Positions 16,849 to 63,320 of a stretch of 64,000 nucleotides of DNA are shown piece after piece; position 1 is the first letter of the stretch, and each line of letters opens with the position of its first letter. This DNA comes from Schizochytrium sp. TIO01 (Eukaryota > Protista > Bigyra: Labyrinthulomycetes), in NCBI GenBank assembly GCA_004764695.1, contig SMSO01000007.1:248001-312000 (forward strand), in the 5' to 3' direction. The position numbers and the translations under genes were made by a program. Under the pieces are notes generated by a model. It saw only the letters and a program-made list of their open reading frames with translations, was not told the DNA's origin and did no database searches.

Positions 16849-16902
<54 letters not shown>
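16849..16902. repeat. Poly(dA) homopolymer, 54 nt
   Basis: Uninterrupted A run, ~235 bp upstream of the F-box gene ATG. Confidence 0.95.
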
Positions 16903-30899: not shown

Positions 30900-31800
30900 A
30901 TTGTGGAATTTTGAGGGTATGAACGTTACGAATAGCCCAAACAAGCGGATTTGGAAAATGGTTATGGGCATGAAGGAACAACCAAAAGGGAGCACCTGCA
31001 ATCAGGAAACCAGAAAGTTTACCCTGTTCGGTTTGGGTTTAGACCTTGATAAGGTAAGATCTGGATTTTCGCTGTTAATTTGGCACAAATGTAAGCTAGT
31101 ATTCAATTCACAAATCCAGCCAAGAAGTGTTTCCCCGTTTCCTTCTGGTTTTACCAAATCTTTATGCTACATATTGAAGGTTGATACCCTGCTAATATTC
31201 ATCGCTACAAGTTCGCAAATTAAGGTTGCTCTCGAAGCAAACAGTATCTTCACTTCCTCTCTGCTCCGATGTCACCCAGCTACTCAAATATATAAAGCAA
31301 CAATGCACAATGCACAGGCCAAAAAAAATAGCAAAGTATTCCCAAATGGCCGCATAGACAAAACCGCTAATAACTTTCTTAGGTTTCCGTACCCTGAAGT
31401 CATGTTGAATGGAACCTATTTTGCTTTAAAATGGAATCTCACTTCAACAGTATTGGCCTGACCATCTACACTTACTCTGAAATCGTAGTTTTCCGCATAC
31501 GTCGTGTTGCTAAAGAAACAGCGTATAGACAGTATTCTATCTTCTATCCAAGTTGAGTGCCATGCACGCAATGTGGTACCTTTTTGGTCCTCATAGTCGT
31601 AATTCAATACCAATTTAGGTCAACAATAAGGTAACTACAATTGACAAGAATGAAAGAAAGATAATACCACGGTAGTGAACTTTCAAGAACAAAAGTCAAG
31701 TCAGCAAGTCTCGATCGAGCTCCGACGGAGATTCTACTCGCTTGCCAGGCCGCTCGGCGGCACGGCTGGCAGTATTTTCGGGGATAGATACTTTTGTCCA
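30900..31800 (-). pseudogene. Possible disrupted membrane-protein gene remnant
   Basis: Protein-like minus-strand fragments 31604-31801 and 31416-31613 continue past stops into a TM-like NTLLFFLACALCIVALY; the + strand 188-aa ORF may be its shadow. Confidence 0.2.
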
Positions 31801-31859
31801 CCCAGGTTGGCAGCCAGGTAGCGGATCCTGAAAGGAAAGTCTGCGATTAGATCATCAAA

Positions 31860-34595
31860 ATGGCGATCGGCAGGCTAACCAAGGTCTCGGCGGTAGTCAT
31901 CTGGGCCGCTATCTGCGCCGTGAATGAGCCAGCTAGAGCTGCAGGACCTCATGTCGATGTGCGGTGGAGTGTGCTTGCAGGACAGTACTTTCTTGCAGAA
32001 AACCTCACGGCTCAGGAGGGAGGATTTGACTTGGAAATACACCCTGGGAGCGAAGCCGAGGTCATGCTTCGAGGCGTGGACCTAGAAACATCTTCATCGA
32101 TGTCAAGGCATTCTTCGTCAACAACAGGTTCTTCAGCTTCACCTCCATCACATGAAGGACTTCAAACTTTTGAGCAAAGAAAACGTCAAGTCCATGTAGA
32201 ACGCCGAAGAGAAAGGGTTAGTGCAAACGAGGATGATGACGAAGAGTTGGAAGCAGCGAATACAACAACCACAGCGGAGGAGGATGCAGAGATGGCAAGG
32301 CTAGAGGTACTCTTACCTGTTGCAGATTGGACATTTAAGAAGCTTGATGTTAGAGGTGCGGTCAGAGATGCCGCGCGGTACCGTGTCACGGTTCAGGCAA
32401 GTTCACCTCATGAGAAACCAATGTTTCGGCTCGGTTTGACACCAGGCCAAGACCTCAGACCAGGAGAACGTCTGTACCGGGAGTGGATGGTAGACAACAG
32501 GTGCCTATGGTACCTTGCGGGACGCCCTGATGAATCAGCAGAGCTCAACGATGACCAAGTGTGGGGTGCGTTTGGCCAAGACGGCTGTGTTGTTGGATCA
32601 ACTCTTTCGATGGAAGTTGACCTTACCAAAGGTCAGGTGAGGTTTTGGTCACCATCTTCACAAGGTAGTCAACCCGAGCTACGTTTTTCCCTAGATGGAT
32701 TTGCCCCAATATCATTGCCTCGATTGACAGAGCAGCGGGACCACGTCTCTCTTACTCAGGACCTTGTGATTAATGGTGCGAGTTTTAACTTCGAAACGTC
32801 CAATTTCGGGCCAGATTTGCCGCTTGGTCGTGCAATTGTAGAAGGCCTTGTACTCGCAGACCCAATCGATGCTTGTGATCCATTTTCCACCCGTATGTCA
32901 CAAAAAATAAAGGGTAATGTGCTATATGCGCTTCGTGGCGGGTGTGACTTTCTTGACAAAGTTCTCCATGCCCAAGCGGCCGGGGCAGTTGCTGTTATAG
33001 TTGCAGACAACAAAGAATCTCGGCGTCAAGCCCGTCCCGTAAAAAAATCCAAACTTGGAGCTAAAGGCGGCGATGATGAGTCCATTGCTGCAGGTGACCT
33101 GGCTGACGGGCCTGAGCTCGTCATTATGGATCATATCAACCGCCATGAAGATGCATCTCGGGTGCTCATTCCTTCAGTGTTTGTCTCAAATGCGGCTGAT
33201 AAGTATATTACATCTCAATACAAAGCTGGCCGGTCCATTAATGTTGCACTTCGAGGTTCGGTGGACGCCCCTGCTCATCACGGTTTGCACTGGAGGGAGC
33301 ACCGCTTGTCTCCAGCGATATGGCTTGGCCCGACCACCGAAGTCAGTATTACTGTTGAAGCATCTCCAAAAGCCTCTGTGCAAAAGCAGTCATGCCGCCC
33401 TGTTGCATATTTGCCTCTAGCAGCGTCAGAACGGAAGAGTTTGCTAGCCTCTTTGCGAGGGGTAGCTCGTTCTAAAGAGACTAGTAAAGATGCAGCAGGT
33501 TTCCGTACTAGTAAGCGACTTGCTGCACAGGGTCAGGCATGTGGCGAAACAGAGGCATCACCAGGTAGCTACCTGTCTGTTCTTGATTCAGGTATTTCAC
33601 TTATCCCTTGGCTCAGAAATATCCCTCAATTTAGTTCTGAGTTTCAAGAATCTAAGTTCTCTGCAAGACAAAAAATTACCAACGGATGGGGGCTAAGCCT
33701 GGTGCCGTCCACAGATCTTTTGCGAAGCCAAGAAGATAAGAGTGTGGTTCTTCAGCGTCATGCATCGCGCTGTCCTCGGGAAGCATCGGCAAGTCGAAAT
33801 GAGCTCGTTGTTCAGAGGGCATCTGATGCTAGCGACAAGAGCCAAACTGAATCTGCAATCATTTGTACATTTGTGCATGGACTTGCAGCTCCCCGTGAGA
33901 CAAGTGCTTCTATCCTCCCGGTCGTGTCTCCAGAGTTTTTTGCACTGAGTACCTTGCGTGCCCCTTTAATTTACATGTGGGAGTTCCATTTAATCATCCC
34001 AGAAATCTTTGAATCCACACGCCAATCGAAAGAACAGAAAGGTTCGGAAACGGCAGAGAGCGCGTCTGGTTATGAAAAGAATTTTGAAGACAAACCTAGT
34101 GGGAAGGATAATACTTTGTTTGCTGCAGTTGGTGTTGTAACTGACCCAACGGGCCGGGCCAGTGAATTTTGGGGACTCACCTCAGATGGCTTCCCTCTCA
34201 TCAAAGGTCGGGAAATGAGCATTTCTTCTTCTTCGGTTGAAATCAACCAGGCCCTTCGTTGGACCTCCTATGCTGGGGTTTTGCTTGATCTAAGTGATAT
34301 GAGCATTACAATTTTTACAGATGCTGCACATTCGAGATGGGTCACCTTACAGATTAAGCCAAACCCAGACATCCTTTTGCCTGTAATGGGGGAACCCGAA
34401 AATGGACTGCCGAGTGCCGGTGCTATGCCCTTCATCACGCTGCATGCCGGCTTGCGCGTCCGCCCCGGTGAATTCCTGACACATAAACATGCAGATGCAG
34501 TGCGTGCCCAGAAAGAACATCGAAAAGCCTCTAGCAAATGCATTCAGGCTCACATAGATGTTCACATTTGCGCAGCCTCGGCCTCAACTGCTTGA
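31860..34595 (+). CDS. Secreted protease-associated (PA) domain protein with SPRY-like beta-sandwich domains
   Basis: 911 aa; signal peptide (VSAVVIWAAICA); PA domain PIDAC...LRGGCDFLDKVLHAQAAGAVAVIVADN...IPSVFVS; SPRY-like segments VGSTLSMEVDLTKGQVRF and GVLLDLSDMSITIF...MPFITL. Confidence 0.8.
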   Translation: MAIGRLTKVSAVVIWAAICAVNEPARAAGPHVDVRWSVLAGQYFLAENLTAQEGGFDLEIHPGSEAEVMLRGVDLETSSSMSRHSSSTTGSSASPPSHEGLQTFEQRKRQVHVERRRERVSANEDDDEELEAANTTTTAEEDAEMARLEVLLPVADWTFKKLDVRGAVRDAARYRVTVQASSPHEKPMFRLGLTPGQDLRPGERLYREWMVDNRCLWYLAGRPDESAELNDDQVWGAFGQDGCVVGSTLSMEVDLTKGQVRFWSPSSQGSQPELRFSLDGFAPISLPRLTEQRDHVSLTQDLVINGASFNFETSNFGPDLPLGRAIVEGLVLADPIDACDPFSTRMSQKIKGNVLYALRGGCDFLDKVLHAQAAGAVAVIVADNKESRRQARPVKKSKLGAKGGDDESIAAGDLADGPELVIMDHINRHEDASRVLIPSVFVSNAADKYITSQYKAGRSINVALRGSVDAPAHHGLHWREHRLSPAIWLGPTTEVSITVEASPKASVQKQSCRPVAYLPLAASERKSLLASLRGVARSKETSKDAAGFRTSKRLAAQGQACGETEASPGSYLSVLDSGISLIPWLRNIPQFSSEFQESKFSARQKITNGWGLSLVPSTDLLRSQEDKSVVLQRHASRCPREASASRNELVVQRASDASDKSQTESAIICTFVHGLAAPRETSASILPVVSPEFFALSTLRAPLIYMWEFHLIIPEIFESTRQSKEQKGSETAESASGYEKNFEDKPSGKDNTLFAAVGVVTDPTGRASEFWGLTSDGFPLIKGREMSISSSSVEINQALRWTSYAGVLLDLSDMSITIFTDAAHSRWVTLQIKPNPDILLPVMGEPENGLPSAGAMPFITLHAGLRVRPGEFLTHKHADAVRAQKEHRKASSKCIQAHIDVHICAASASTA

Positions 34596-35167
34596 ACTCA
34601 TTAAATGTTTCTTATCAAAGAGATCTTTTGCCGCCACAGCTCACAACTCATCCCTGCTGATTATCATTCAGGTTCGCGTTTCGTTTTATCCACATTCATA
34701 ATTGCTGTCGCCGCTTCTCCTTCTGCAAAGCCACAGCCACTACTGAAATGCATACTCTTTCTTGCGAGATCGCCGGCTACATTTGTCAAGATCTAGTACT
34801 CTATAGCAACTATAGTACATTAAAAAAAGAATCAACTGTCTCTTGTGTTTTTTTGTTTTTTGCTTGCTTTCTTTCAACATTTGTTTATAATTGTCTAACT
34901 ATGCCAATAGGATGAGAGACTTTCCAGTGGATTGTCTACATGTAAGCCATAATTTCGGGCCCAACTTTGTGAAGACGTCTTATCAGTGATCAGGATCAGA
35001 TCAGAGGGAAACAAGAACTGGGAATGGTAGGGAAAGGGGGATTCAAGGAAAGGGACAATTCTCGTTTCGAAAAAGAAAGTGCCCTCGAAAACAATAAAGT
35101 TGAGAGAAAGAAAATTTGCGGTCGGCCATCTTAGATGTCACGTCTGAAAAGTTTTACTTTTGTCATT

Positions 35168-35379
35168 TTCATTTCTTTCGAGGTAAAAGATTTTGATCTC
35201 TCTTCCTTAAAAGGTTTTGAGGTGTGCAAATGAAAAGATCACTTTCTGATTTTTGTAAAAGCTGAAAGGGGAAAGAAAGTTCATTTCTTTCAAGGTAAAA
35301 AAATTACCCTTCAAAGATTTTTGAGGTACGCAAAACGGAAAGATCGCTTTCAGGTTCTGGTAAAGCTGAAAGGGGAAAG
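35168..35379. repeat. Degenerate ~100-110 bp tandem duplication upstream of the nuclease-kinase gene
   Basis: Units 35168-35275 and 35280-35379 share ttcatttctttcRaggtaaaa...ttttgaggt..gcaaa..gaaagatcRcttt...taaagctgaaaggggaaag. Confidence 0.85.
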
Positions 35380-35607
35380 GACAATCACGCTTGCTCAACC
35401 AAAACGAGTGTCCCTCTCAAATTGAAGCACGCGTAATCGACATGTTTGGATTTCTATCGATCGAGCGCGTTGCGTTTTATTCCTGAGATCTGTCGGTCTG
35501 GCTAGATCTAGGATGTGTAATCCCCTGGTTGAGTGAAAGTGGGTGTTTCGTTGCAGGCAAATCCGGAATTCTGTCAGCACGTGCAGAGTTTAAGAAGATA
35601 AACAAGG

Positions 35608-38211
35608 ATGGCTCTGCGCCCTGAGAAGCCGTCGAATCTCGTACGGAGACCTTCAACGAGGTCTATTGTTGGTGCTTTTGAGAGAGTGTTGACTGTTTCT
35701 CGGAATTTGCAAGAGAAAACTGGTGAATTGGCTTCGAAATTGAAGGTTCTTGAGGCCCGTGTGCACGAAATTCGACCTTCCATTAATCCTTCCTTGGCCC
35801 TGGCCATTGATGCTGCAGTGAGAGGAGACGAAAAAGCACAGAAGATTGTACGAGAGAGTGAATCCAAAGTTCCTCTGTGTCAGAAAAGGGCGGTCGCGGC
35901 GTACACAGCCGCAAGCCACTCTCTCTTTCGTGTCCTTGCAGACACTGCAGCACTAGAGGAAACAAAGACAGAGTGTGCACTCTTAGTCTCTCAGGCACTC
36001 TCCCTTTTCCAAGTTGTTGAAGGTAAGCAAAACCCGAACACGATTGATAGGCCGTCCATTAGTGAAATCGTTAAGAGTGTGAAAGGGCTTGAAACGAGGC
36101 AAGAAGAAGAAGAAGAAGAAGAAGAAGAAGAAGAAAAGGAGAAAGCAATGCCCTTTCCTCGTCTATCAAGAAAGAAAGCCAAGCACGGCTTGTCTGCGCC
36201 CCTTCACGCGAAAGGGAAGTCCAACGGAAATCGAGGTGTTAGACCCCCGGGAGACGAGGAGGAAGACACAGGTGGACTCGAGACAATCCTTGGAGCAATG
36301 GCGACAAGCAACCGAGACAACGCGGGGGGCAGTGGTGCGCGTTTCGATATTGTCCGCTTTGAGAGACGTCTAGAGGTGCAACAGGCTAGACTTGAGAAAC
36401 TTGAAGAAAAATTGGAAAAGCTGCGAGACAACGGCAAGATTCCTGATGACGTTTTTCCGATCATTGAGGATGTTGTTCAAGAACGCACAGAGTTCGAGGA
36501 CGCAATAAAAGAGGTGGCAAATTTGGATTTAGAGGGTCGTTGGAAACATGACACTTCAAGAGCTCTGCGCATAGCATCTGATATGAAGGAAGCCCGATTA
36601 GAAATCAAGGAGACAAAAGGGAAGATTAGAGAATTTGAGTCTGGAGGCGGTGAAGAAGGAGAAAGCATTTCGCGCTTCTCCGGATCAGTTTGGGAATCCC
36701 TTGGGTGCGTTTTACCTGAAATTACTCACGATCCTTCTTTAGCCGTATCAAACACGAATATCTCAAATACGGATAACTATCCTTTTGCCCCGAAGACTGT
36801 CCAGGGGATTGACTGGGAGAATTTCATGGCATACTGTGCAGATAAAGGATATTTGGAAAAACTTCAGCAAGAATCAACTAATGAAAGTGTTGGTGATTTA
36901 CTTGAGAGGTCAATGCGCTCTCTTTATATAAAGTCTGAGAGTTCCGTTGGACTTTGTTTTTCACAAGTTTTCCAAGCAGTCATCTCTGCTCTAGACTTCA
37001 TTACGGAAAACCTCCGCTACACGTCTGACAAGTCCTCGACGGGTGGTCTTCGACCAGATTTTATTATTGGTCTCGTCGAAAATGGGGTTACAGTACCTAT
37101 AAATCCCTTGCTTGTGGGTGAACTGAAGAGTTACAGTTCAGATCATGAACCATTTTATTTCCGTTGGTGTGACTGGCATGGACATGCCCCTGAACAATGC
37201 CCTGATTCTGCTCGTTCTGAGAGGCACGCGAGTGTGTCCCCAATTAGACAGTTGTATAACTACATGGTCGACTCTGGCAAGTTTGTTGGTGTTTACTCCC
37301 ACTATGGCTGTACTGCGGCATTCTTCCGTGACTGTAAAGGCACTCTTGTTACAACGCCGATGCTCACACGCGACTCTGGTCCAATAAGCGTGCCACAGTT
37401 GCTCGCCTTGGTTATCATGATTGCCATATCTGAGGAGGTGCCGGAATTTTACAACGGTGGAACGCCCATTTTGGTGCCATGCGAAGGCAAAAGAAGTTGC
37501 AAAAAGACCAATCGTAAACATACCAGTCTACCTGATGACTGTAAGTGGTTAAAGAGCGATCTCAAGAGTAGCGCTAAACCTAGAACAGGAGCCACTGCAA
37601 TGAGAAGGGCGGCGAACAAGTCCCTTTACAAAAAGCATGACACTCCCATCACCTGGGGTGATCTCTACAACTGCAAGTACATTTCTGACTGCTACACAGG
37701 TAACGCAGTTGAGTGTGAGATCATGGGCGAGCGAGCAGTGGTTAAATACAACGATTTCGGCGATCACGAAGATGCTGATGAGCGTCTTGACCAGATTGAT
37801 TTTGAAGCTGAAGTCTACGCAAACTTGTCTGACTTGCAGGGGGATTGTATTCCCAAATACCTGGGCCATGGCTCCATTACCGATACTGATGGATCCCAGT
37901 ATGGTTTTGCTACCTCTTATGCAGGTGAGTCACTCTCGTATGAATCTCTTGATTCTCTCACTGAAGAGTTCAAGACAAGCGTCAAGGATGCCCTAGACAA
38001 GATACACGCGCGTGGTGTTTTGCATGGCGACCTGAGACTTCCGAACATCCTGAAGTCGAAGGACGATCCCGAGAAGGCAGTTTTTATCGACTTCAGTCAT
38101 TCAGGGATCTATGACGAACCTGATGATCAGTTCTTTCAAGGCTGCGCAAGGCTTGAGAAGGAGAACCTCGTCAAGCTCTTGAAAGGCGAAAAAATCAAAC
38201 AAGTTTTTTGA
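35608..38211 (+). CDS. Spok-like / Crinkler-type REase-kinase protein (helical N-terminus, coiled coil, PD-(D/E)xK nuclease, Cys/His cluster, APH/RIO-like kinase)
   Basis: 867 aa, intronless; RPDF...VGELK...QLYNYM..G nuclease motifs; kinase AVVK, EAEVYANLSDLQGDCIPKYLG, LDKIHARGVLHGDLRLPNIL, FIDFS. Confidence 0.85.
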   Translation: MALRPEKPSNLVRRPSTRSIVGAFERVLTVSRNLQEKTGELASKLKVLEARVHEIRPSINPSLALAIDAAVRGDEKAQKIVRESESKVPLCQKRAVAAYTAASHSLFRVLADTAALEETKTECALLVSQALSLFQVVEGKQNPNTIDRPSISEIVKSVKGLETRQEEEEEEEEEEEKEKAMPFPRLSRKKAKHGLSAPLHAKGKSNGNRGVRPPGDEEEDTGGLETILGAMATSNRDNAGGSGARFDIVRFERRLEVQQARLEKLEEKLEKLRDNGKIPDDVFPIIEDVVQERTEFEDAIKEVANLDLEGRWKHDTSRALRIASDMKEARLEIKETKGKIREFESGGGEEGESISRFSGSVWESLGCVLPEITHDPSLAVSNTNISNTDNYPFAPKTVQGIDWENFMAYCADKGYLEKLQQESTNESVGDLLERSMRSLYIKSESSVGLCFSQVFQAVISALDFITENLRYTSDKSSTGGLRPDFIIGLVENGVTVPINPLLVGELKSYSSDHEPFYFRWCDWHGHAPEQCPDSARSERHASVSPIRQLYNYMVDSGKFVGVYSHYGCTAAFFRDCKGTLVTTPMLTRDSGPISVPQLLALVIMIAISEEVPEFYNGGTPILVPCEGKRSCKKTNRKHTSLPDDCKWLKSDLKSSAKPRTGATAMRRAANKSLYKKHDTPITWGDLYNCKYISDCYTGNAVECEIMGERAVVKYNDFGDHEDADERLDQIDFEAEVYANLSDLQGDCIPKYLGHGSITDTDGSQYGFATSYAGESLSYESLDSLTEEFKTSVKDALDKIHARGVLHGDLRLPNILKSKDDPEKAVFIDFSHSGIYDEPDDQFFQGCARLEKENLVKLLKGEKIKQVF

Positions 38212-38289
38212 ACACTCACAAGTTAATAACCCCTAACTCATGAAAAGAAGAAGAAGAAGAAATAATCAATGTTTGTTTTGTTTCCAATC

Positions 38290-38309
38290 CATTTTATTAT
38301 AATAAAATG
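38290..38309. terminator. Perfect 20-bp palindrome carrying AATAAA on both strands (bidirectional poly(A) signal)
   Basis: cattttattataataaaatg equals its own reverse complement and lies in the 106-bp gap between convergent stop codons. Confidence 0.65.
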
Positions 38310-38317
38310 CTACTTAG

Positions 38318-38433
38318 TTAGGTTACGGAGAGGATCTCTCGCAAGTGATTTTCCACTGCAGAACTTGTGTACTCACTGAACCGCCGCTTGTCTTTGGATT
38401 GATGGCAAGTTTCGAACAATGCCAACGGATCCA

Positions 38434-38471
<38 letters not shown>

Positions 38472-39073
38472 ACTTTAGTCGCTTCGGCGTAGTCTTGGGA
38501 GGGTCCAAGCAATGGAATTGGGCCCGGGACAAAGGAGTTAAGTAGCCACGAAAAGAGCACACGAGCGGTCCTTCCATTGCCAAATGCAAAGGGTTTGAAA
38601 AACAGGAACTTTGCTGTGAATTCTGTCGCAACGTGCAAAGCATCTTGCAATGCGGCGGCTTCTATATCTTTTACATCTTGCTTTCCTGTGATCGAGAAAG
38701 GTGTGGTTTGGTATTTTATAATGAGATTCCTCAGTGCACGATCAAGAAGCCCAGGGGTTGGATGAACAAGAGGAATTCTCGTCAAATCACAGGTAATTTG
38801 GTGACGCCTGAATGAGAATGCGGATGCACTTCGCAATTTGCTGCTGCTGTGGGGCTGGCCGAGGATGATTGCGTTAAGTTTGCAGAGAAACGAAAAGGAA
38901 AGGCCGCCATCATAATGCATTGCGAACTTGTAAGCTTCAACGAGGTTGGTTCTGTTTTTTTCTTCGGTTTCCAGGGCTACTCGCTGTAAAAACCAAGTTA
39001 TCAAGGGGCCGTTTTGCAGTTCGCAGCGACTCCTTGCTTCTCGCGCTAGTTCACTCAAGTCAAGGCCGGTCAT
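38318..39073 (-). CDS. Fic/Fido-domain protein with non-canonical active site (KPFAFGNGRTAR)
   Basis: 251 aa; LCKLNAIILG helix, flap region, Fic signature xPFxxGNGRTAR; internal (GCA)n poly-Ala. Confidence 0.85.
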
Positions 39074-39231
39074 TTTTCTGTTGTTGTTTTGTTTTGTTTT
39101 TGTCGATTTTGCTTGGTTGATGAAAGAAGTGCAGAGAAAATTAAATTTGTTCGTTCTTCTTCTTGATTTGACTATTTTCTAATGAATAAAAGCGCGTTGG
39201 TTTTTTTGTTGCTTCCTTGTTATTTATTAAA

Positions 39232-40060
39232 TTAAACCCAAGGTTCCATTCGTTCTCTGGAGAGCCGCACGTCAAAAATGACACCATCGTTCGCACCGGT
39301 AATCAAGGTGCTAGAGAGTGTGACATCAAAGAGATAATTGCCGTAACAAATGTCCTGCTTTTGGATGTCTCCTAGACAGTCAATGTCTAGCTCAGGGAGG
39401 CAAATTTCGCCTAGAAAGCCGCGCAGCCGGGCTGGTGCAATGTAAACCCTATCCCCGTCTTCTTCAATTAAGGCTAGATCAGACTCTTCGAGAGGGAGCA
39501 CCTCGTGCGCAGCAGGGGAAACGCACATGGCCACTTTGGCATTATCATACTTGTACGCAAATAGAACGACCGTCTCACTAAGCAACTCAAGAGAGTATTC
39601 AATGTTGTCCTGATGAAATCCAACAGAAATGAGCGGTGAGAAGGGCCGGGGAGATCTTAGGAGATCACTTAAGCGGTCTTGTTTCAATGCTCACCCTTCC
39701 CTGAGAGAAAGGCGAGTTGCTGCCTGTATACAGCATCTTGCGAATGGTCTTTTCATCGAGAAAACTCGGGTAAGCCGCAATCGTGACCTGCACATCATCG
39801 GAATATTCAATCATTTTCAGATCCCCAATGAGTTTTTCTAAAAAACTCTCGTCATTCAGTCTTATCCAGATCTTTTTGAGTTCAGGGAGTTCGTAGACCT
39901 CCTGGAAAAATCCTTTGATACCCTCATCATACCAAAGTTCACCTGAGTAAAGGCTGTTCCTGCAGATCAGCATCTCTTTACATTCCCTCATTCTCGTCAC
40001 GTTCTGCTGGAAAAGTGCTTCGGGATAATCACCGCACTTGTTGAACTTGGGTCGCTCTGC
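39232..40060 (-). CDS. Spliced orphan protein (ORFs 39665-40000 and 39232-39687 joined by an 85-nt intron); 5' end uncertain
   Basis: GT-AG intron 39694..39610 (AGG/gtgagc...ctcac...catcag/GAC) joins ...SQGR to DNIEY... in phase 0; the upstream frame stays open to a possible acceptor at 40061; AATAAA just after the stop. Confidence 0.6.
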
Positions 40061-40625
40061 CTAGCGATACGCGAGCACGTGCTAAATATGCTTATTTGAT
40101 AGTTTAGGGTGCATACCTTGCCCCTCTCTTTGTGTTTTTCCTCCTCCCTTCACCCTTCTTAGATTTTGTTCCACAGCTTGCAATCACGTCATACAGAACA
40201 CCTCGCAGGCCTACAGCCTTGTAACGAGTGTTGAATTCGAGTGATGCTGCAGAAGCAAAGGAGGCTGCGAACTCAAGCATTTTGTGCTCATTCTTGGTCT
40301 TGGATTTACGAAAAGAATAAAATATGTCTTCTAATGCATCTTGTCAGCGAGAAGCTGTAAAGTAGGGAATAATAGTAGGATAGATGATGATTTCTTCCTC
40401 GCAGCTCAGGCTAGACCTCTTTTGATTGTCTGACTGCTGCATCACATTTATTTCAGCTCAAGCAGGGAAACTACAAATCAGTCGTCAGCAAATAATCTGG
40501 CTCATCTATAAAGTATATGCTAAGCCTGAGATCTGAAAGCTAGCATGCTTTTACCACCCTATCGATACGATTAAGCGGAAGCAAGCAAGCAGTGATTCTG
40601 ACAACTGGAGAAAAGTAAGTCGGCT

Positions 40626-42659
40626 TTAAAGCTCATCTTGAGTCTCAACACGATCATAGACCACACTGCCGGCTTCTCGTGAGCGCTTCATCATCAAGCA
40701 AGCGCCACAGCCAACCAATACGCTCAGGGCAACCACAACATAAGAATACCTTGGGTCAATGGTGTCCTGATCAGCTTCAGCTTCCTCCTTGTCAAAATCT
40801 GAGCGCAGGTTCTGAGGTGCTGCAGTTGGCGATGCAACTGGCGATGCAACTGGCGATGCAACTGGCGATGCAACTGGCGATGCGACCGGGGGTGCAGTTG
40901 TGGGTGCAGTTGTGGGTGCAGTTGGAGATGCAGTTGGGTATGCGGTTGGCATCAAAGTTGGCTTTGGAGTTACAACAGTGCAAAACGGCTGAGTTTGAGG
41001 TTTACGAGGGAAGAAAATAACATCCGAGGTCCAGTTTGTCCTACCTTTAATGACGTGGCCTGATATCTCAGCATACCACTCTGGGTTCGTGCGGGCATTC
41101 ACAACGTGCGATTGCGGGTGTACCGCAGGAAAGGCCTCTTGTGGGATAGAATACCAATTCTGGTCTACTTTGGCCACAGCAACGACTTGCTGCAGTGTCG
41201 CATTGACTGGAAGTGCAGGCAACACCTGCTTAAATGCAGGGATAAATGGCCAAAGCTCACGATCGTTAATATCATCCTGTGCATCGAGCTTAATATCCTT
41301 GCCAGAAGTGCCCTCGGAGTTTCCGTTGTTTTGGTCGCCCCACAGACCACCACTATTCCAACGCGTCTTTCCAGATAGAACAGGGGTCCGAAGAGTGGTG
41401 AGTCCCCCACCTTGAATCATGAAGGTGTACTCCAAGAAAGTTTCATCCACAAACATCGCGCCACCAACCTCCCAGGTGAATTCTGACTTCGATGCATCTT
41501 CTTGTGAGTCTGGCACGCTAACCCACTGGATATACGGCTGCACTAGGTCCGTCATAAGCAGCGCCAGCCTCAGGTTGCGTGGTGTATGTCCATCTCCGCT
41601 TCCCTCTGGTCTAAGCATCTGCGCCGTTGAGCCTAGAGTTTCTTCCACCGGAGTTTTGTCATCTGCAGTCTCAATGAGAATATTAAATGACCGCAACATA
41701 TACTTGCTATAGATCGTCTTTTCCATATTATACCCCTGAAACCTTTTGGGCTTACACACCTTACCCGTCGGGTCCCACGAAGCTGCGTAAGCCCAGTCTT
41801 CCATTCCGCCTCGGACCGGATATACAAGGTCATTTAAACGATCATGCGGATATAGACCTGCGCCTTTATGCATGTCCCCAGCATAGGCGCTCATAGAAGA
41901 CCCCAGCATGAGTTGTGCAATGTCATCGGGGCTCACAGGTTTTGTACGCCTAGAAAGCGATCCCCACTCGAAAGCGATGGCCTGCATTCCGCCATGGTAA
42001 GTTAGAGCTAGCTGGAAAAGATGCTCTCGAAATAATTCGTTCACAGCACGTGCGGTAATTGACTCCATACAGGTATGCGGCCTATCAATGGGAAAATCTC
42101 TGTTGGGGTCTACCGTATTCTCTGTGCGGGTGTTACGGTAGTATCCAAGGGCATTTGTGGTTGGCATAATAAAAATAGAGCGCGTGTTAACAAGCCTGCG
42201 GATCCAGGCATTCGAACAGCTTGTGTAAGACTCAAGCAAGAGCCTGGCAAACTCCATCATTGTCGTGGGACCAACACGCTCGTTTCCGTGGAGTGCGCCG
42301 CTGAAGAAAACCTCAGGACGCTCAGGATCTGGCAAAGTCGCCTCGTTAGTGATACGCAAGATGTAATGTTTGCAAGGACCACGAGTTCCGCAAGACCCGG
42401 CAGAAGGAAGACCGTAGCGTGCCTGTGCGTCGTAAACCTCGACGAGACCGGGATACGTTCTCTCAAGACGTTCGAGCTCGGCTTTGATGGCCCAATAGTC
42501 GAGGTATTTCACGGGCCTTGCTGAAGAGCTTGGGCTTGATAACTTCTTTCCCACCATCTCCATGAACTCGGGATGGTCCGGATGAATCCCCTGTGCGGCC
42601 ACAGAGGCACACAGAGTGGCCACCGCCGCCAGGGCGGTCCAGATGCCTCCGAACTTCAT
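40626..42659 (-). CDS. Zinc carboxypeptidase, peptidase M14 family, type I membrane protein
   Basis: Signal peptide MKFGGIWTALAAVATLCASVAA; zinc ligands HGNE and YHGG, DPNRDF, ILIE; PT/PVAS mucin-like repeat stalk; C-terminal TM YVVVALSVLVGCGACL. Confidence 0.93.
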   Translation of the reverse strand: MKFGGIWTALAAVATLCASVAAQGIHPDHPEFMEMVGKKLSSPSSSARPVKYLDYWAIKAELERLERTYPGLVEVYDAQARYGLPSAGSCGTRGPCKHYILRITNEATLPDPERPEVFFSGALHGNERVGPTTMMEFARLLLESYTSCSNAWIRRLVNTRSIFIMPTTNALGYYRNTRTENTVDPNRDFPIDRPHTCMESITARAVNELFREHLFQLALTYHGGMQAIAFEWGSLSRRTKPVSPDDIAQLMLGSSMSAYAGDMHKGAGLYPHDRLNDLVYPVRGGMEDWAYAASWDPTGKVCKPKRFQGYNMEKTIYSKYMLRSFNILIETADDKTPVEETLGSTAQMLRPEGSGDGHTPRNLRLALLMTDLVQPYIQWVSVPDSQEDASKSEFTWEVGGAMFVDETFLEYTFMIQGGGLTTLRTPVLSGKTRWNSGGLWGDQNNGNSEGTSGKDIKLDAQDDINDRELWPFIPAFKQVLPALPVNATLQQVVAVAKVDQNWYSIPQEAFPAVHPQSHVVNARTNPEWYAEISGHVIKGRTNWTSDVIFFPRKPQTQPFCTVVTPKPTLMPTAYPTASPTAPTTAPTTAPPVASPVASPVASPVASPVASPTAAPQNLRSDFDKEEAEADQDTIDPRYSYVVVALSVLVGCGACLMMKRSREAGSVVYDRVETQDEL

Positions 42660-44710
42660 GGCTTCGACAACAGACAACTGCGAGGCCCACCGAGGTATTG
42701 CCTTTGGGCTCTGCCTACCAAAGCGACGTGGCCAAAAACAAAGAAATCGTAACAACGAATTTTAATCGAAGTAACATACAAAGTAGTCCTAACACCTATT
42801 ATACGCTATCTAGGAATAACTATCCAAAAAATGAATTAGGCCTTTTACCGATAGATGACTCGGTACTTACATGAGAAGCTTCTTAAGACAGCCATTCTCA
42901 GAGGGTACGCGCAAAGCTTCGACTTTATTCATAAATGCTCGAAGATTATTTTAAACACAGCTGTGTAATTGCAATGTGGTTGACTCAAAGCAGCTTGGCT
43001 TGCTTGTACTGTTTACGCAGTATTGCTCGTCGCTGTGATAGGATTCAACTAGATTAGTTTTTATTAGTAGTAAACATGCATCGAAAAAATTAGGTACTCT
43101 TGATATACATACGTACGATTTGTGGCGGGTGTGGCTGATATAGATGCACACTCTGTAGCGTGAAAGCTTGGTTCGGGCGTTGAAGTTTGTGTTTCTAGCA
43201 GGTCATCTTCATTGCTAGTCTATGTTTTTCAAGGAAGAACTGCGGTATTAATGAATGACGATATAGCAAGGCAGTTTCAATTAAAAGTATGAACCGAGCA
43301 GTGGAAAAAGAAGCAAAGGCGAACGCAATGACAACGTGATAGTTGTATTGCCTTACAACAAAAGCAAAGATACTTATCAAAAGCAAGTATTCTGGGTTGG
43401 CTTTGGTTGACATAAAGCTCTTACCATAATAGTCCTTGGCATTCACATGTTCACTATTCAGTCAATTTCTTGTTTATGCAAAATATGGCAACCACAAGAG
43501 AAGAGTCAGCAATTATGGTAGGGACCACAAGAAGTGCGCGAAGTGGTTACATAGGGAAATAGTTTGCGAGTTATGTATGTGTGTAATATATAGACTCGCA
43601 GCAAATTTATGTACGATAAGTATGTATGCCGAGAAATCAATGATGGCATTATAGCTGAGGGTAAAAAAGACTAAATCCAGTAAGCTCCTAATCATGAATT
43701 ACATTCAAGGTACCAAATAGATAGGCAGATTGTGTAGCTTTAAATTGCTTGCAAAAATTGAATCTATAGAAGGAAAAACTATTCACAAAATACAGAAGCA
43801 GTGCTAAAAGGAGCAGCATCATGCAAATTTTGCGACGAATACATAAGAGATGAAGAAGTCCCGCTTGAAAGCATCATTGTCAGTTTCTTCAATTCCCCAA
43901 TGACGGATGGTCTTTATAAATGGGTAATAGCACCTACTACTAGGTTCCGTTCCAATTCGTTCTGTTCTCTCTCTCTCTCTTCGCTTTTGCAGACCGGAAC
44001 AGAACAGCTTCCTCAATACAGAAGTTGAATGGACTTGGACGGTGTAGGTGCTGTGGCAGCATTCTTATTCACGGACGGGAATGAGGAAGTTGTGGTAGGG
44101 TTCACGGGCGTTGAGACGTGCGGCATCGGTAGAAATGGTGTCCTCATAAATCTCAATATCTTTGTGAAAAGAAACTAACAGAACGGAGGTGGTGACTTCA
44201 GATCGCAAGTTACGACCCGACTCAACGGCTAGATCTTCGTAAATTCTGCTCCACCAAACAAAAAAGCATGACAGAACCCTCGAGTTGCCTACTAAAAATA
44301 AAGGATGCAGGAATTAGAAGCTTAGAACTACTTACCGTGAATGACTGAATTTGCTCTTCGGTACTAACCTCTTTTCCGAACGTATTGATAGGCCATCCGA
44401 ATAAAAGTGAAGCGTTCATGTAAGAACTGAGCTGCTATATTAGGAAGAAGTTGTGTGGTTCTAAATATTGCAATTCTAGTACAAAGAGCAACATTGCCAG
44501 CAATATATATGAAATAAGGATTTGGCACGCAAGGCATTTTTCATAGCTTAGGTAGAGAAACAAAACTTGACAGAACATCGGGTGCAGCTAGCTAGTGCAG
44601 CTGCAACGACAACCAAAGTTGAGGCCAGAAGGAGGCCAGCCAGCATTGCAGGGGCAAGAGTCATTTAACCCAAAGGCATGAGCTAGCTGGCGGAACCTGT
44701 CTTTCGATTC

Positions 44711-47371
44711 ATGGAAAGCCAAGAGAAGGACGGATCACCTCTCCCTGCTGGCGCGCCTTCGCCTGGGAAGTGGAAACGAAGCAACACAATGTCGGCGACT
44801 ATCCGAAGGGCGAGTGTCAGTATTGAGCAGACTATTGAAGGAGGCCTTGCAAACATGATGCGCCGACTTTCTACGGATGCTGCAGCTGAGGAGCATGTCA
44901 AAGTTGTCTTTGATGGTTACTCTACTTATCGGCACTTTGAGTTTCCGGATATTACACCTCTCAAACTTCGAGCGATGACCACATTGGAAAGCTTTGACAC
45001 TCGACAGGCAAGACGTCTCAAACTACTCCATAAATTTCTCATTTCACATCGTAGCAAGTGGCGAACGAGCGTAATTAAACTTTCCTTTGTCGCATCTTTT
45101 TATGCAGCAAACTCTACGCCTGCTTTTGTTGCCTTTGGGTATGAAATGTACCCAGTATTTTTCATTCTTCAGATGCTCGTATATGCTGTATTTTGGCTTG
45201 ATATTTTCTGTGAATTTAATTCGACGTATCAGGCTCAGAACGGTCATGATATATCCGACCATATTAGCATTGCAGAGCAGTACATCCGAACTTGGTTTGT
45301 GATTGACTTCTTGGCAGCCTTACCATTTCACGTTTATCAATCATCGGAACGTTTAGAAAACAACTTCAAGCTCGAGTGGGACCTAACAAACCGCATGGAC
45401 AAACACCCGTTAGAGTTTAGGTCGGCCCTCCAGCTTGTCATTGTCTTTGCTAAATTCCTTCGGGAGGCAATTCGTATGCGAAAAGTTGGGTTCTCAAGCA
45501 CGAGGTACGCGACAATAGTTCATGGCTTGTCCTATGCAGCATATTTGTTAACATTAATTCAAATCCTCACAGCAATCCTTTTTGTAGTTTGCCAGACTGA
45601 AAACTCTGTGTTTTTTGCCAAGGCTATGATTGGTGAGCTTGATACAATGGTAGCTGAACAGGGAACAGATGTCTCCAACGCATATCTGATGCGATACATT
45701 GTATTCCTACACTATGCTACAGTATATATTCTTGGCAAAGGCGAACCAACATGCACCGCGGAGCGTATCTTTGCAATTTCTACTAACGTGCTTGGCTTGT
45801 TTTTCACTGCCACAGTTGTTGGTCAAGTCACACATATAATTCATCAAGCTAATGCAAAGGTTTCGAAATGGCGTGCGAAAATGGAAGAGGTTGATGACTC
45901 AATGTTGCAGATGGGTTTAAGTCCTGACTTACAGAACCGGATCCGAAATTACTATGCGTTCTCATGGGCAGTGAACGGTGGTGAGGACAAAAATTTTCGT
46001 TGGCTACAAGATTTAAGCAAGGGTTATCATGAAGCAGCAGCAATTCAAATGAATGAAAACCTGATTGCCTCTGTGCCAATCTTCCGAGTCGCTGACAGAG
46101 CTTTTGTGCATGCTATCATCATGAAACTTCAACAACAGCTCTACTTACCTGGTGACTACATAATTAAACATGGAGATATCGGTAACGAGATGTACTTTGT
46201 TGTCAAAGGTACAGTTCAAGCGATGGATAAAGAGGAGACTGTTATATACACAACGCTCTCAGAAGGGTCCTTCTTCGGTGAAATCGCTCTCTTGAAGAAA
46301 AATTCAAGGCGAACTGCTACTGTAAGATCCTTTACCTACGCTCAACTTAACGTCCTTTATAAAGCTGATTTTGAGGAAATCTTAGTCAATTTCCCAAAAG
46401 ACGCAGCGCTTTTAGAGGCTGAGGCACGTCAACGTGAGCAAAAGTCTGACGCTATGGCCAAGATCAAAGAAAAGCGTATGCAAAGCCAGAGTAGCCAGTC
46501 ACGCTCTCACGGAGATTCGCTTCTTTACACTGTTATCCCGGAAAGCGAGGGAGAGGCAGAAGATGATGATTCTGACAGTGCACGTGGGCATGCCAAAAAT
46601 TCTTCATTTAGAAAAATACACCCGAAACAGGAAAAAGGCACTAAGAGTTCTGCCGATACAGCCCACCATGCGCAAGAAAATTCATCTGTCCCTGCCACCC
46701 CTACTCCCAGTGGTGGCATAGTGTTTGGAACTAGTTCTATTCTTGCAACGGGGGACTCACCTCAACGGTTATCATTTGGAGGGGCTGTGCATAGTGCTAG
46801 GTTCTCAAAGAAGAGCGGCAGAAGCTATCAGGTTTCTCCTGATATGAGCGCTGGAGACGGCCAAGGGCATAATACAATCTTTAACCTAGACGCAGATGGT
46901 GAGATTGACCTCTGCTATTCTCAGCTAAAGAAAGCGTCTACATCTGAACTGCGCTCAGACGAAATATTGCAAATGCTTTCTATCCTCACACAGCATTTGC
47001 AAGCATCTGAAAGCTTGCCTAAAATCAAAACGCGACGAATCTCAATGCTCGTAAACGAATTAAATCATGGGCTGGAACAGTGCGAATCTGCTCAGACAGC
47101 ATCAACTTTAGACACAGATGATACAGAGACTCAACTCGATCTTGCTGAAGCTAGCGAAGAGGTACAGTCCACCCGAAAAGAGGTCCCTCCTCTTGACCTA
47201 TCTCTTACGTCGACTGAAACTGCTTCAACTAGTAGTAAACATTTGCAAACCGCAGAGACTGGAGGTGCGGTCGAAACAAGTACCCAGGAGGCAGCTGCAA
47301 CTGACCAGAGGTCTTCTAGGAAAACTAACGATTCAGTTGTCAATACCCTAGATTCAAAGCCTTCAGAATGA
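44711..47371 (+). CDS. Cyclic-nucleotide-binding-domain cation channel (KCNH/HCN/CNG superfamily)
   Basis: 886 aa; YIRTWFVIDFLAALP S3, TAERIF..LGLFFTATVVGQV S6, C-linker LQNRIRNYY, CNBD PGDYIIKHGDIGNEMYFV...GSFFGEIAL...RRTATV. Confidence 0.92.
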   Translation: MESQEKDGSPLPAGAPSPGKWKRSNTMSATIRRASVSIEQTIEGGLANMMRRLSTDAAAEEHVKVVFDGYSTYRHFEFPDITPLKLRAMTTLESFDTRQARRLKLLHKFLISHRSKWRTSVIKLSFVASFYAANSTPAFVAFGYEMYPVFFILQMLVYAVFWLDIFCEFNSTYQAQNGHDISDHISIAEQYIRTWFVIDFLAALPFHVYQSSERLENNFKLEWDLTNRMDKHPLEFRSALQLVIVFAKFLREAIRMRKVGFSSTRYATIVHGLSYAAYLLTLIQILTAILFVVCQTENSVFFAKAMIGELDTMVAEQGTDVSNAYLMRYIVFLHYATVYILGKGEPTCTAERIFAISTNVLGLFFTATVVGQVTHIIHQANAKVSKWRAKMEEVDDSMLQMGLSPDLQNRIRNYYAFSWAVNGGEDKNFRWLQDLSKGYHEAAAIQMNENLIASVPIFRVADRAFVHAIIMKLQQQLYLPGDYIIKHGDIGNEMYFVVKGTVQAMDKEETVIYTTLSEGSFFGEIALLKKNSRRTATVRSFTYAQLNVLYKADFEEILVNFPKDAALLEAEARQREQKSDAMAKIKEKRMQSQSSQSRSHGDSLLYTVIPESEGEAEDDDSDSARGHAKNSSFRKIHPKQEKGTKSSADTAHHAQENSSVPATPTPSGGIVFGTSSILATGDSPQRLSFGGAVHSARFSKKSGRSYQVSPDMSAGDGQGHNTIFNLDADGEIDLCYSQLKKASTSELRSDEILQMLSILTQHLQASESLPKIKTRRISMLVNELNHGLEQCESAQTASTLDTDDTETQLDLAEASEEVQSTRKEVPPLDLSLTSTETASTSSKHLQTAETGGAVETSTQEAAATDQRSSRKTNDSVVNTLDSKPSE

Positions 47372-57300: not shown

Positions 57301-60300
57301 TTACTTGAGGGTTGACGTTGGGAGCTGCTTTGCAGAAACGCGAAGGGTACGAGCAGACTGTCTACCATTGGGACGCATGGCATCTGGTCTACGTGGACTC
57401 CTAGATTCTGAAGGAGCCTTTGCTGACGAGGAGACTTGCTCAAGGTGCCGTCGTAACACCCCAGGGATAAACCGATCATTGTGAACTCGGTCTGATTCGA
57501 CAACTTGGTCTGGTGAAACCATAGCCAGGCGTGCTTGAAGAGAGGATTGTTGGCGCAAAGACCCAGTAGGATCATTATCATTAAGGGTATTTGGTGGAGA
57601 GTGGACTCCTACCCCTAATACCGATGGGAGGATACTAAACTCCATGTCACAATCCACCTTGAGAGGTACCATGTCCGATTTAAGAGGCTTGGTTCGGGGC
57701 TTACGAGTTGGCATCTGATCTTTATTGATTTCTTCGCTAGATGCGGAGTGATCCTTTTTAGATTTATGTTTAGGTTTACGCAATGCACCGCTAGGTGTAC
57801 TAGATATCTTCATTAGTCTTTGTGATGTCTGCGCCCAGCTGTCACGGCATAGCTTATCAGAGTCCTCTTTAATTATGCTGTTTTGACCATTAGAGACAGT
57901 GTGCTCTCTATTATTTAATGCTGGAACTGTTGTAGGCAACGACTCCGCAGAAGCAGTATTCTGATCTGGTGCGTTTGGGATTTTAGATGTTGCTGATGTG
58001 ACCGAAGTTTTCACTTTAGGAGCGGGAACACGAGGCTCAAACTCTAACAGCATTTGAGACACGGACTGTTGGCGTCCAATCAACGGTTTATCAGAGGCAA
58101 GATCATCATGGTCGCCATCATTTTCATCATCATCGAGGAATCCAGGCTGCACTTCACCTGGTTCGTCAGCTTCAACTGGTTTGGCACCGCGTGGCTCAAA
58201 GTCTAGCAGCATCTGTGATACAGACTGTTGTCTTCCAAGACCGGGAGCAGGTGCAAAGGGGCTATCTTCTTCTTCGTCATCGAAACTACCTGGTACGACA
58301 TCCAGGTCAGCAGAGCCGCTTGTAAAAGCTTGCTTGTTTCCTTGAGGCTGAAAGTCTAGCAGCATCTGTGAAACTGACTCTTGTCTTCCAAATCCTGGAG
58401 TACTTCCAAAGGGATCTTGATCGTCCGGTTCATCATCATCGAACCCGCCCGGTAGCGAAACATGTTGTTGCTTATGTTGTGATGGTTTGTTTCCTGTTGG
58501 ATTGAAGTCAAGAAGCATCTGCGACACAGATTCTTGACGTCCAAAGTCGGGGACTGAACTCGCAAAGGGATCATCATCGACCTCATTATCATAGTCCATA
58601 AATGCTTCCCGAACAATGTGTGTGTTACCTGATGATTTGCTTGACTTTCCAGGGGAAAAGTCAAGAAGCATTTGAGACACTGATTCCTGACGTCCTAGTC
58701 CTGGAGCCGATGGACCATCTCCAAATGGATCATCATTGTCATCTATGGTATCATCGTCATAGAATGTGTTTACATTGTGTGTATACTGCGAGGTCGAATT
58801 GTTTGACTGTCTTTTAGCTTCTTGCTTCTTTGCACCTCCTGGCGAAAAGTCTAATAGCATTTGCGAAACAGATTCTTGACGTCCAAGCCCTGGACTACCA
58901 AGGAAATCGTCGTCGTCAAAGCCAGTTCCTATAGGTGTCTCCTTTTCGGCTTTTGGTTTTGCCGGTTTGAAATCTAAAAGCATCTGCGATACAGACTCTT
59001 GACGTCCAAGGCCAGGGCCTGGTGAAAACGGATCGCCAAAGTCATCGTCATCGTTATCAAATTGAACCGGGTTTGCCTCCCTGTGTTGGTGTTGAGGTTT
59101 GGACGAAGGTTTCTGTGGAGAAAAGTCCAGCAGCATTTGGGAAACTGATTCTTGACGTCCGAGGCCTGGCGTTGAAGCAAACGGATCATCATCGTCATCA
59201 TCATGCAGAAAGCTGCTTTCCTTTGATGTACGATTTGATGAATTTGTCTGGGAAGTTGGCTTTTGAGGTCTGGCAGGAGTGAAGTCCAATAACATCTGCG
59301 ACACAGACTCCTGCCGCCCAAGCCCACGTGCAGAGGCAAAGGGATCATCTTCACCAAAATCATCACCAAAATCATCACCAAAATCATCACTAAAGCCATT
59401 GCTTTCGTGTTGATTTGTTTGTCTGTGTTGCTGTTGCTTTGGCGCAGCTTTAGTAGGTGTAAAGTCAAGTAACATTTGTGATACAGATTCTTGACGTCCA
59501 AGTCCACGTGCAGAAGTAAAAGGGTCATCTTCATCGAAGTCATCCCCCAAATCATCAAAGAATTCGTTCCCATATTGAGAAGTAGGATCTCTGTGTTGTT
59601 TTTGTTGTTGTTTAGACACAGCTTTTGTGGGGGAAAAGTCAAGGAGCATTTGTGAAACAGACTCTTGCCGGCCTAGCCCAGGCGCAGAGTTAAATGGGTC
59701 ATCGTCTTCAGTATCCTCTAATCCTAAGTCGAATTCGAAATTTGGACCTTGTGGTTTAGTTTGACTTCGGCTCGGTTTGGCATTAGGCGAGAAATCCAAG
59801 AGCATTTGTGATACAGACTCTTGACGCCCCAAGCCCGGAGCTCCGCCTAAGAAATCATCGTCACTATCATCCCTACTAATAGTTTTATTTGCATACAAAC
59901 GTGTGTTGCCTCCTTTTTGGGCTGCTCCTGTTGTTGGAGCGAAATCCAAAAGCATCTGAGAAACAGATTCTTGTCGGCCAATTCCTGTTGGTACGTCAAA
60001 CGGGTCGTCATCATCTGCACCATCCTCAATTGCTATTAGATCACTATCTACACCAACACTACATTCAAACGGAGAATTTGTTGCTCCCTGCGGGTCAAAG
60101 TCCAAGAGCATTTGCGACACAGACTCCTGACGACTAAAACCTACAGCAAGTCCCACTGGGGAACCAAAGGGATCCTCTGTGTCATTCGCATCATCATCAT
60201 CCGGTGTATTGATTTCTTCCCCGAATGGGTCGCCTTCTGGATGTTCTATTCCCATTTCCAACAAGGCAGACACAGTCGATGCTCTTGCTAGTTCTGGAGC

Positions 60301-63150: not shown

Positions 63151-63320
63151 TGTTAAAGAAGCATACACGCCGAACGAGTGGTCTCAGCACGTGTGTCGCC
63201 TTGGTCAGCGTCTGTAAGCTGCTGCCTTTCCTCGAGTTCTAGATGACAAAACAATTGAAGTTGAGGTCTTAGGACTAAGCAATTGTCTCTCGAGCAAAAA
63301 CAGCAGCTACACACACAGAC

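What the first reader, a model, noticed from the sequence alone, without database searches (positions are those of the whole stretch)
35000..40120. Compact island: Spok-like nuclease-kinase + pseudo-Fic + orphan gene, a candidate toxin-antidote / selfish element in a protist
Seen: three non-housekeeping genes packed with gaps of only ~106 and ~158 bp, preceded by a degenerate tandem duplication and lying between two ordinary secretory-pathway genes. Two carry conflict-system domains (REase + kinase, and Fic). Established: Spok meiotic drivers and Crinkler/RHS effectors use REase-kinase fusions, and Fic/Doc domains are toxin-antitoxin and effector modules. Inference: this is a mobile or accessory cassette in which the Fic-like and/or orphan protein modulates the nuclease-kinase, acting in drive, self/non-self recognition or antiviral defence. 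I know of no description of this combination but could not search for one.
Basis: partly seen in the sequence, partly recalled or inferred. Interest (0 to 1): 0.85.

Follow-up and report, generated by a model that had tools for sequence, protein, structure and literature searches.

The report
Multicopy nuclease-kinase cassette in marine protist
A five-kilobase block of three genes occurs in several diverged copies in the genome of what is likely a marine thraustochytrid protist; its main gene has the nuclease-plus-kinase layout of fungal spore-killer proteins and likely acts as its own poison and antidote, while a Fic-like gene and a broken orphan gene likely ride along.

Summary
In detail: gene A (36148-38211, +), a Fic-like gene B lacking the catalytic His (38318-39073, -), orphan C (39232-39991, -), gaps of 106 and 158 bp and a real ~110 bp tandem duplication. 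New here: in 4 of 4 DNA runs from four studies, ~34930-40050, spacers included, is covered by several variant contigs at about 5-8 times flank depth (medians). Gene A keeps all PD-(D/E)xK, QxxxY and kinase catalytic residues and belongs to the widespread REase+kinase class (Crinkler-type C-termini; Spok-like layout). It lacks the Crinkler header and Spok's exact Cys pattern. Listed differences between copies are 43 of 46 non-synonymous and miss the catalytic sites. C is broken in this copy; some B copies are frameshifted; none of 4 outside relatives of A shows B or C on its short contig. B resembles, by eye, the Fic of the Aurantiochytrium mirusvirus AurliV-1. No terminal repeats, target duplication, transposase or empty site was found. 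Best reading: a selfish, Spok-like self-contained toxin-antidote cassette with passengers; the function is untested. New variant of a known kind.

The parts
34930..40049 (.). Repeated cassette (ends approximate: left between 34836 and ~34990, right near 40049)
   Evidence: bins 35253-39839 at 3.4-21x flank depth (medians 5.4, 5.5, 8.3, 6.3 in X3, X5, X11, X13), flank bins at most 1.45x. Flank contigs end at 34986-35028. X13 has a loose end before 34970; X19 has a divergent record from 34929. Three divergent records stop at 40049 and go on with 81-162 unlike letters.
35168..35379 (+). Degenerate ~110 bp tandem duplication, variable between copies
   Evidence: 75% identity, E 4e-12. table 5: contigs of X3 and X13 skip one unit (35194 to 35307/35313).
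35608..36147 (+). In-frame 5' extension of gene A (180 codons), probably not translated
   Evidence: An 8-nt deletion at 35755 breaks this frame in 4 of 8 runs laid (X3, X11, X13; X20). RNA-like contig depth is far lower here than from ~36150 on (a hint only, contigs cannot rank levels).
36148..38211 (+). Gene A, 687 aa: helical N-terminus, PD-(D/E)xK-type nuclease (D304, E325, K327, QxxxY Q368-Y372, Cys/His insert), Cys cluster C-x5-C-x6-H-x6-C (445-465), eukaryote-like kinase (K533, E553, D628, N633, D648)
38318..39073 (-). Gene B, 251 aa Fic-fold protein; catalytic His replaced by Lys and acidic residue by Phe (motif KPFAFGNGRTAR at residue 160)
   Evidence: PF02661 24.7 bits, cut-off 24; aligned to FICD motif; motif position
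39232..39991 (-). Gene C, orphan, split over two frames around 39626-39694; likely broken in this copy
   Evidence: other copies differ beyond 39625; no splice joint; only a 97% near-self cluster found; no family
31860..34595 (+). Left flank: PA-domain gene, single-copy depth
40626..42659 (-). Right flank: zinc carboxypeptidase M14 gene, single-copy depth; RNA-like contigs run from its 3' end through C (X19, X20) and B (X20)

Best explanation
This is a three-gene cassette present in several diverged copies, whose gene A keeps intact nuclease and kinase motifs and likely works as a self-contained poison-antidote, with the Fic-like gene and the broken orphan likely carried as passengers. Shown: repetition of the block with its spacers, domain order and catalytic motifs of A, loss of the Fic His, the break in C. 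Inferred from Spok and Crinkler REase-kinases: the nuclease damages DNA unless the protein's own kinase and Cys cluster restrain it, so cells or gametes that lose a copy, or meet a copy of different specificity, would be harmed. That would keep copies in the genome and drive their variable regions apart. Inferred and weakest: copies spread by duplication or as non-autonomous cargo, since the block shows no transposase or ends of its own.
For: Depth and variant contigs over the whole block, both intergenic spacers included (variants at 38294 and 39149), in 4 of 4 DNA runs. Motif conservation in 4 of 4 close rows and across 20 rows. Atlas neighbours at 0.94-0.99 include SPOK2_N and Crinkler clusters. 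Kinase fold, Z about 15. Spok's order (coiled coil, PD-(D/E)XK with QxxxY, Cys cluster, kinase) and split of killing and resistance: passages of PMC6660238. 43 of 46 listed changed codons are non-synonymous, none at 10 catalytic residues, none a stop; 3 of 36 single-change codons are synonymous against 0.27 expected, p 0.006. B or C absent beside 4 of 4 outside relatives. B frameshifted in some copies and C broken.
Against: No toxicity, rescue or drive data. The nuclease fold has no PDB or Pfam hit. Spok's Cys pattern and the Crinkler header are missing. No empty site in 4 runs and no terminal repeat, target duplication or Helitron end. Summed contig depth is not a copy number, short contigs do not prove that all three genes lie together in each copy, and depth over B and C (up to 10-21x) exceeds that over most of A. 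The substitution tally uses only the rows the tool showed (40 of 444 and 40 of 226). The outside contigs are 2.8-6.1 kb long. X3 has no differences in the flanks and may be the window's own source.
Confidence: 0.45

Rival explanations
1. Multi-gene toxin-antidote: the pseudo-Fic or the orphan binds or modifies the nuclease-kinase and is needed to hold it in check.
For: Tight packing and joint repetition of all three genes and spacers. B stays an open frame in this copy with the GNGRTAR loop kept.
Against: A has its own intact kinase. No B or C beside 4 outside relatives. C is broken here and B frameshifted in some copies.
Confidence: 0.15
2. Host-serving defence family: an expanded, fast-evolving nuclease-kinase that would kill or stall a virus-infected cell, with a captured viral-type Fic as decoy or sensor.
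For: Aurantiochytrium, the likely host, carries persistent mirusviruses. B resembles the AurliV-1 Fic by eye. Non-synonymous excess. The block is present at this locus in all 4 DNA runs.
Against: No link to infection was tested. PADLOC hits are only weak generic kinase and Fic matches.
Confidence: 0.17
3. Relic of a giant virus or mirusvirus, integrated and then amplified by segmental duplication, now decaying.
For: The best structural hits over both domains are Pandoravirus DUF5898 proteins (492 and 511 columns, E 1.5e-9 and 6.7e-9, but rmsd 19-22). Fic resemblance. Orphan gene; broken copies.
Against: 8 of the 9 island motifs searched have no match in the 7 supplement files with the AurliV-1 and -2 ORF tables; the ninth, GNGRTAR, hits only the distinct viral Fic. 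No relatives in viral contigs. GC and GC3 are like the flanks. The closest sequence relatives with taxa are eukaryotic.
Confidence: 0.13
4. Autonomous mobile element of an undescribed kind in which the REase domain itself cuts for insertion, or in which C is the remnant of a longer mobility gene.
For: Dispersed repetition with single-copy flanks. Divergent copies continue differently beyond 40049. A review notes links of CR REases to transposable elements.
Against: No terminal repeats, target duplication, transposase match or empty site. 40049 may be only an exon edge of a diverged paralogue.
Confidence: 0.1

Closest known systems
Spok spore killers of Podospora and Fusarium (PMC6660238, passages; PMC9972908, abstract; 10.1101/2025.02.05.636631, abstract and section 15)
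   Same: Order of helical N-terminus, PD-(D/E)xK nuclease with QxxxY, Cys cluster and eukaryote-like kinase; multicopy and diverging.
   Different: Stramenopile host (inferred). Cys pattern C-x5-C-x6-H-x6-C rather than C-x3-C-x13-C-x5-H-x7-H. Extra Cys/His insert in the nuclease. A 5 kb block, not a 74-167 kb Spok block. No function shown.
Crinkler/CR REase+kinase proteins (Zhang et al. 2016, seen only through passages of the review PMC5289972)
   Same: REase plus kinase C-terminus; 2 of 62 relatives scanned carry a Crinkler header; class also found in free-living eukaryotes.
   Different: No ubiquitin-like Crinkler header in A; groups with P0004 and P0005 (98/95, long branch), away from the Crinkler-headed P0082; linked to Fic and orphan genes.
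AACRNL selfish Crinkler-like genes (PMC12957317, abstract and section 8)
   Same: Crinkler-related gene amplified within the genome of a free-living eukaryote.
   Different: AACRNL is an ADP-ribosyltransferase moved by flanking hAT or mariner elements; here nuclease-kinase and no such ends found.
Fic/Doc family, including AurliV-1 ORF 523 (PMC12606086 supplement file 3, row 47)
   Same: Fic fold and GNGRTAR loop; by eye similar N-terminal helices and the same residues after the loop.
   Different: B lacks the catalytic His and the acidic residue, while the viral protein keeps the His. The similarity was not computed.

Membership tests
Spok | PD-(D/E)XK nuclease motif with QxxxY | tested here: met
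   D304, E325, K327, Q368, Y372, invariant in 4 of 4 rows; motif level only, no structural hit
Spok | C-terminal eukaryote-like kinase with catalytic Asp | tested here: met
   HGDLRLPN and DF motifs; APH/Kdo/Pkinase weak hits; kinase fold Z 15.4
Spok | Cys cluster C-x3-C-x13-C-x5-H-x7-H before the kinase | tested here: not met
   A cluster lies at the same place but reads C-x5-C-x6-H-x6-C (sequence)
Spok | N-terminal coiled coil and Spok domain 1 (SPOK2_N) | tested here: inconclusive
   Low-confidence helices, weak SMC-like hit; no SPOK2_N hit in the Pfam copy; SPOK2_N clusters at 0.95 in the Atlas
Spok | Killing and resistance by one protein | not testable with these tools
   Needs a bench assay
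Crinkler (CRN) effector | Ubiquitin-like N-terminal header (PF20147) | tested here: not met
   No hit, whereas P0082 and P0135 hit it
Crinkler/CR class | REase coupled to kinase at the C-terminus | tested here: met
   class described
Active Fic AMPylase | HxFx(D/E)GNGRxxR motif | tested here: not met
   His to Lys and Asp to Phe
Fic/Doc fold | Pfam PF02661 at gathering score | tested here: met
   24.7 against 24 bits
Cut-and-paste DNA transposon | Terminal inverted repeats, target-site duplication, transposase | tested here: inconclusive
   None above shuffles, no transposase hit; ends known only roughly
Helitron | 3' hairpin before CTRR; RepHel gene | tested here: inconclusive
   13 CTRR sites near the edges, best upstream hairpin -5.6 kcal/mol; no RepHel hit
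AurliV-1/AurliV-2 mirusvirus DNA | Island proteins present in the viral ORF tables | tested here: not met
   Exact-motif searches in 7 supplement files: only the shared Fic loop, in a different protein

The most novel reading that the evidence does not exclude
A new kind of compact eukaryotic selfish element with no known transposase: a Spok-like nuclease-kinase that both addicts and mobilises a 5 kb cassette in a marine protist, carrying a disarmed Fic taken from the host's own mirusvirus as decoy, with copies diverging under an arms race.
Probability: 0.12. Interest if true: 0.85.

Novelty: new variant of a known kind. Interest (0 to 1): 0.56.

Why it matters
What the many REase+kinase genes of free-living eukaryotes do is open; outside fungi no Spok-type poison-antidote is known to me (recalled, not exhaustively searched). 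A recently repeated, apparently fast-diverging cassette in a culturable thraustochytrid makes the question testable with the yeast and E. coli assays used for Spok. It may also link a host conflict gene to the resident mirusvirus. I found no description of this cassette in paper searches; Zhang et al. 2016 and most subscription journals were not searchable, and the bioRxiv supplements of the genome paper are closed.

Tried and rejected
No whole genome was held, so copies could not be read. Word-based searches found nothing for A or B and only a near-self cluster for C. The single-sequence fold of A was poor (pLDDT 38). The Atlas gave no usable hit for the second frame of C. Scans gave no relatives in viral contigs, in metagenomes for C or in prokaryote genomes for B. 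L005 and L006 were dropped as chance 38-residue matches in bacterial recombinase genes. The nuclease-only profile had no PDB hit, and fold searches were filled by the kinase. Weak Leptospira hits to the first frame of C (E 0.02-0.4) were not accepted. The complex prediction of A with B gave 'no answer' (0.00), which is no evidence either way. No Rfam match. No second copy in the window. No peptide match in proteomics supplements, which may not hold sequences. No RNA holder on record; the four runs laid are guessed RNA and X12 is flagged probably DNA. An 85-nt intron in C was considered and left unproven. An assembly error in C was rejected because independent records P0156 and P0158 lie in one 90% cluster and P0156 carries the same odd segment. 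Earlier scan notes: nothing.

Full report
Observation. The window is intron-poor eukaryotic DNA of about 45% GC. A neighbouring gene clusters with a record labelled MMETSP0960, TAXON_ID 87120. NCBI maps that id to a fungus, whereas 87102 is Aurantiochytrium limacinum. I recall MMETSP0960 as A. limacinum, so the host is likely this thraustochytrid; this is inferred. Between a PA-domain gene and a carboxypeptidase gene lie gene A (+), gene B (-) and gene C (-), with gaps of exactly 106 and 158 bp, preceded by a real tandem duplication.

The block is repeated. No genome was held, so I laid contigs of four DNA runs from four studies on 31500-44000. Flank bins lie at 0.9-1.45 times their median. 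The 11 bins from 35253 to 39839 lie at 3.4-21 times, with medians 5.4, 5.5, 8.3 and 6.3. The tool warns that summed depth is no copy number. The qualitative signs agree, though: flank contigs end at 34986-35028, several variant contigs cover the same places (up to 12 at 39475 in X11), and variants occur in the non-coding left end and in both spacers. One unit of the tandem duplication is skipped in contigs of X3 and X13. No contig joins across the block, so no empty site was seen in these 4 runs. X3 may be the window's own source. The ends are about 34930-34990 and 40049. No inverted repeat, direct repeat or Helitron end stands above chance, and the window holds no second copy. A high-copy mirusvirus episome (about 9x, passages of 10.1101/2023.06.15.545109) could mimic this, but of 9 island motifs only the generic Fic loop occurs in the AurliV-1/-2 supplement tables, in a different protein.

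Gene A. An 8-nt deletion at 35755 breaks the first 180 codons in 4 of 8 runs, and RNA-like contigs are much deeper from about 36150 (a hint only), so the likely start is 36148 (687 aa). A search of 1.84 billion representatives gave 392 hits at E 0.001 or better, 5 at 1e-30, the best 33% identical over query residues 33-508. Of the 150 listed, 26 have a QxxxY-like motif and 23 also the kinase loop. The alignments show D...GExK, a Cys/His insert, RQLYNYM, a second Cys cluster and the kinase motifs. Atlas neighbours are fungal kinase clusters at 0.99, SPOK2_N clusters at 0.95 and a Crinkler cluster at 0.94. 2 of 62 long relatives scanned carry a Crinkler header; A does not. The model built on 20 sequences (pLDDT 76.7) matches kinases; the nuclease part got no structural or profile hit. 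The best viral folds are Pandoravirus DUF5898 proteins over about 500 columns with high rmsd. In Spok3 the same domain order holds, the nuclease kills, and kinase plus Cys cluster protect (passages of PMC6660238); SPOK1 targets DNA (abstract of PMC9972908). In Crinkler REase-kinases the REase is held to be the toxic part (passages of PMC5289972). Among the differences between copies that the tool listed (40 of 444 and 40 of 226 rows), 56 fall in A, in 46 codons: 43 non-synonymous, 3 synonymous, no stop, none at 10 catalytic residues. For single-change codons p is 0.006 overall, but 0.19 alone. This is a lead for diversifying selection, not a measurement.

Genes B and C. B reaches the Pfam Fic cut-off but has Lys for the catalytic His and Phe for the acidic residue. 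It has no sequence relatives in the collections searched. By eye it resembles AurliV-1 ORF 523, an intact-His Fic (supplement of PMC12606086); this was not computed. One-base deletions occur in some copies (38551 in X3, 38898 in X20). C lies in two frames. An 85-nt GT-AG intron would join them, but contigs of X19 and X20 run through unspliced from the carboxypeptidase 3' end. In all four DNA runs other copies differ beyond 39625 with letters that read in frame, so this copy is likely broken. C has no family or outside relative. Of 6 metagenome loci for A, 4 are true relatives; none shows B or C (best E 0.056), but only 2 have 1.8 kb or more downstream.

Mechanism and verdict. The best-supported reading (0.45) is a selfish cassette whose nuclease-kinase is a one-protein poison-antidote, with B and C as passengers and spread by duplication or as cargo. 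Repetition and anatomy are shown; toxicity, protection and mobility are inferred. Rivals are antiviral defence (0.17), a multi-gene toxin-antidote (0.15), a viral relic (0.13) and an autonomous new element (0.10). It is laid out like Spok and belongs to the CR REase+kinase class, but is filed neither as Spok (Cys pattern not met) nor as Crinkler (no header). A Crinkler-like selfish gene in free-living eukaryotes has precedent (PMC12957317, abstract and section 8). This combination was not found in searches. Novelty: new variant of a known kind; interest 0.56.

Noticed in passing
L001:1554-2102 (+): Directly downstream of a relative of gene A lies an ORF with what look by eye like N6-adenine methyltransferase motifs (FxGxG-like and NPPF; recalled labels), a possible nuclease-methylase pair.
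   Followed up: no
P0017 and P0051: Two 85-aa pieces at 54-58% identity to gene A, each with a longest Logan contig of 12,686 bases: probably a broken older copy or one in a related organism.
   Followed up: partly
L004:1116-2942: A relative of gene A broken by stops and a frameshift, beside a coiled-coil gene.
   Followed up: no
window 57301-63183 (-): 1960-aa open frame built of 76-aa repeats and many short repeated motifs.
   Followed up: no
window 44687-47371 (+): 894-aa frame that looks by eye like a cyclic-nucleotide-gated channel.
   Followed up: no
window 38072-40856: One RNA-like contig of X20 runs from the carboxypeptidase 3' end through C and B into the end of A: possible read-through, antisense to A; a contig across genes shows no single transcript.
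   Followed up: no
P0002: The source label gives TAXON_ID 87120, a fungus in NCBI; 87102 is Aurantiochytrium limacinum, so probably a digit swap.
   Followed up: yes
window 16849-16902: A run of 54 A.
   Followed up: no
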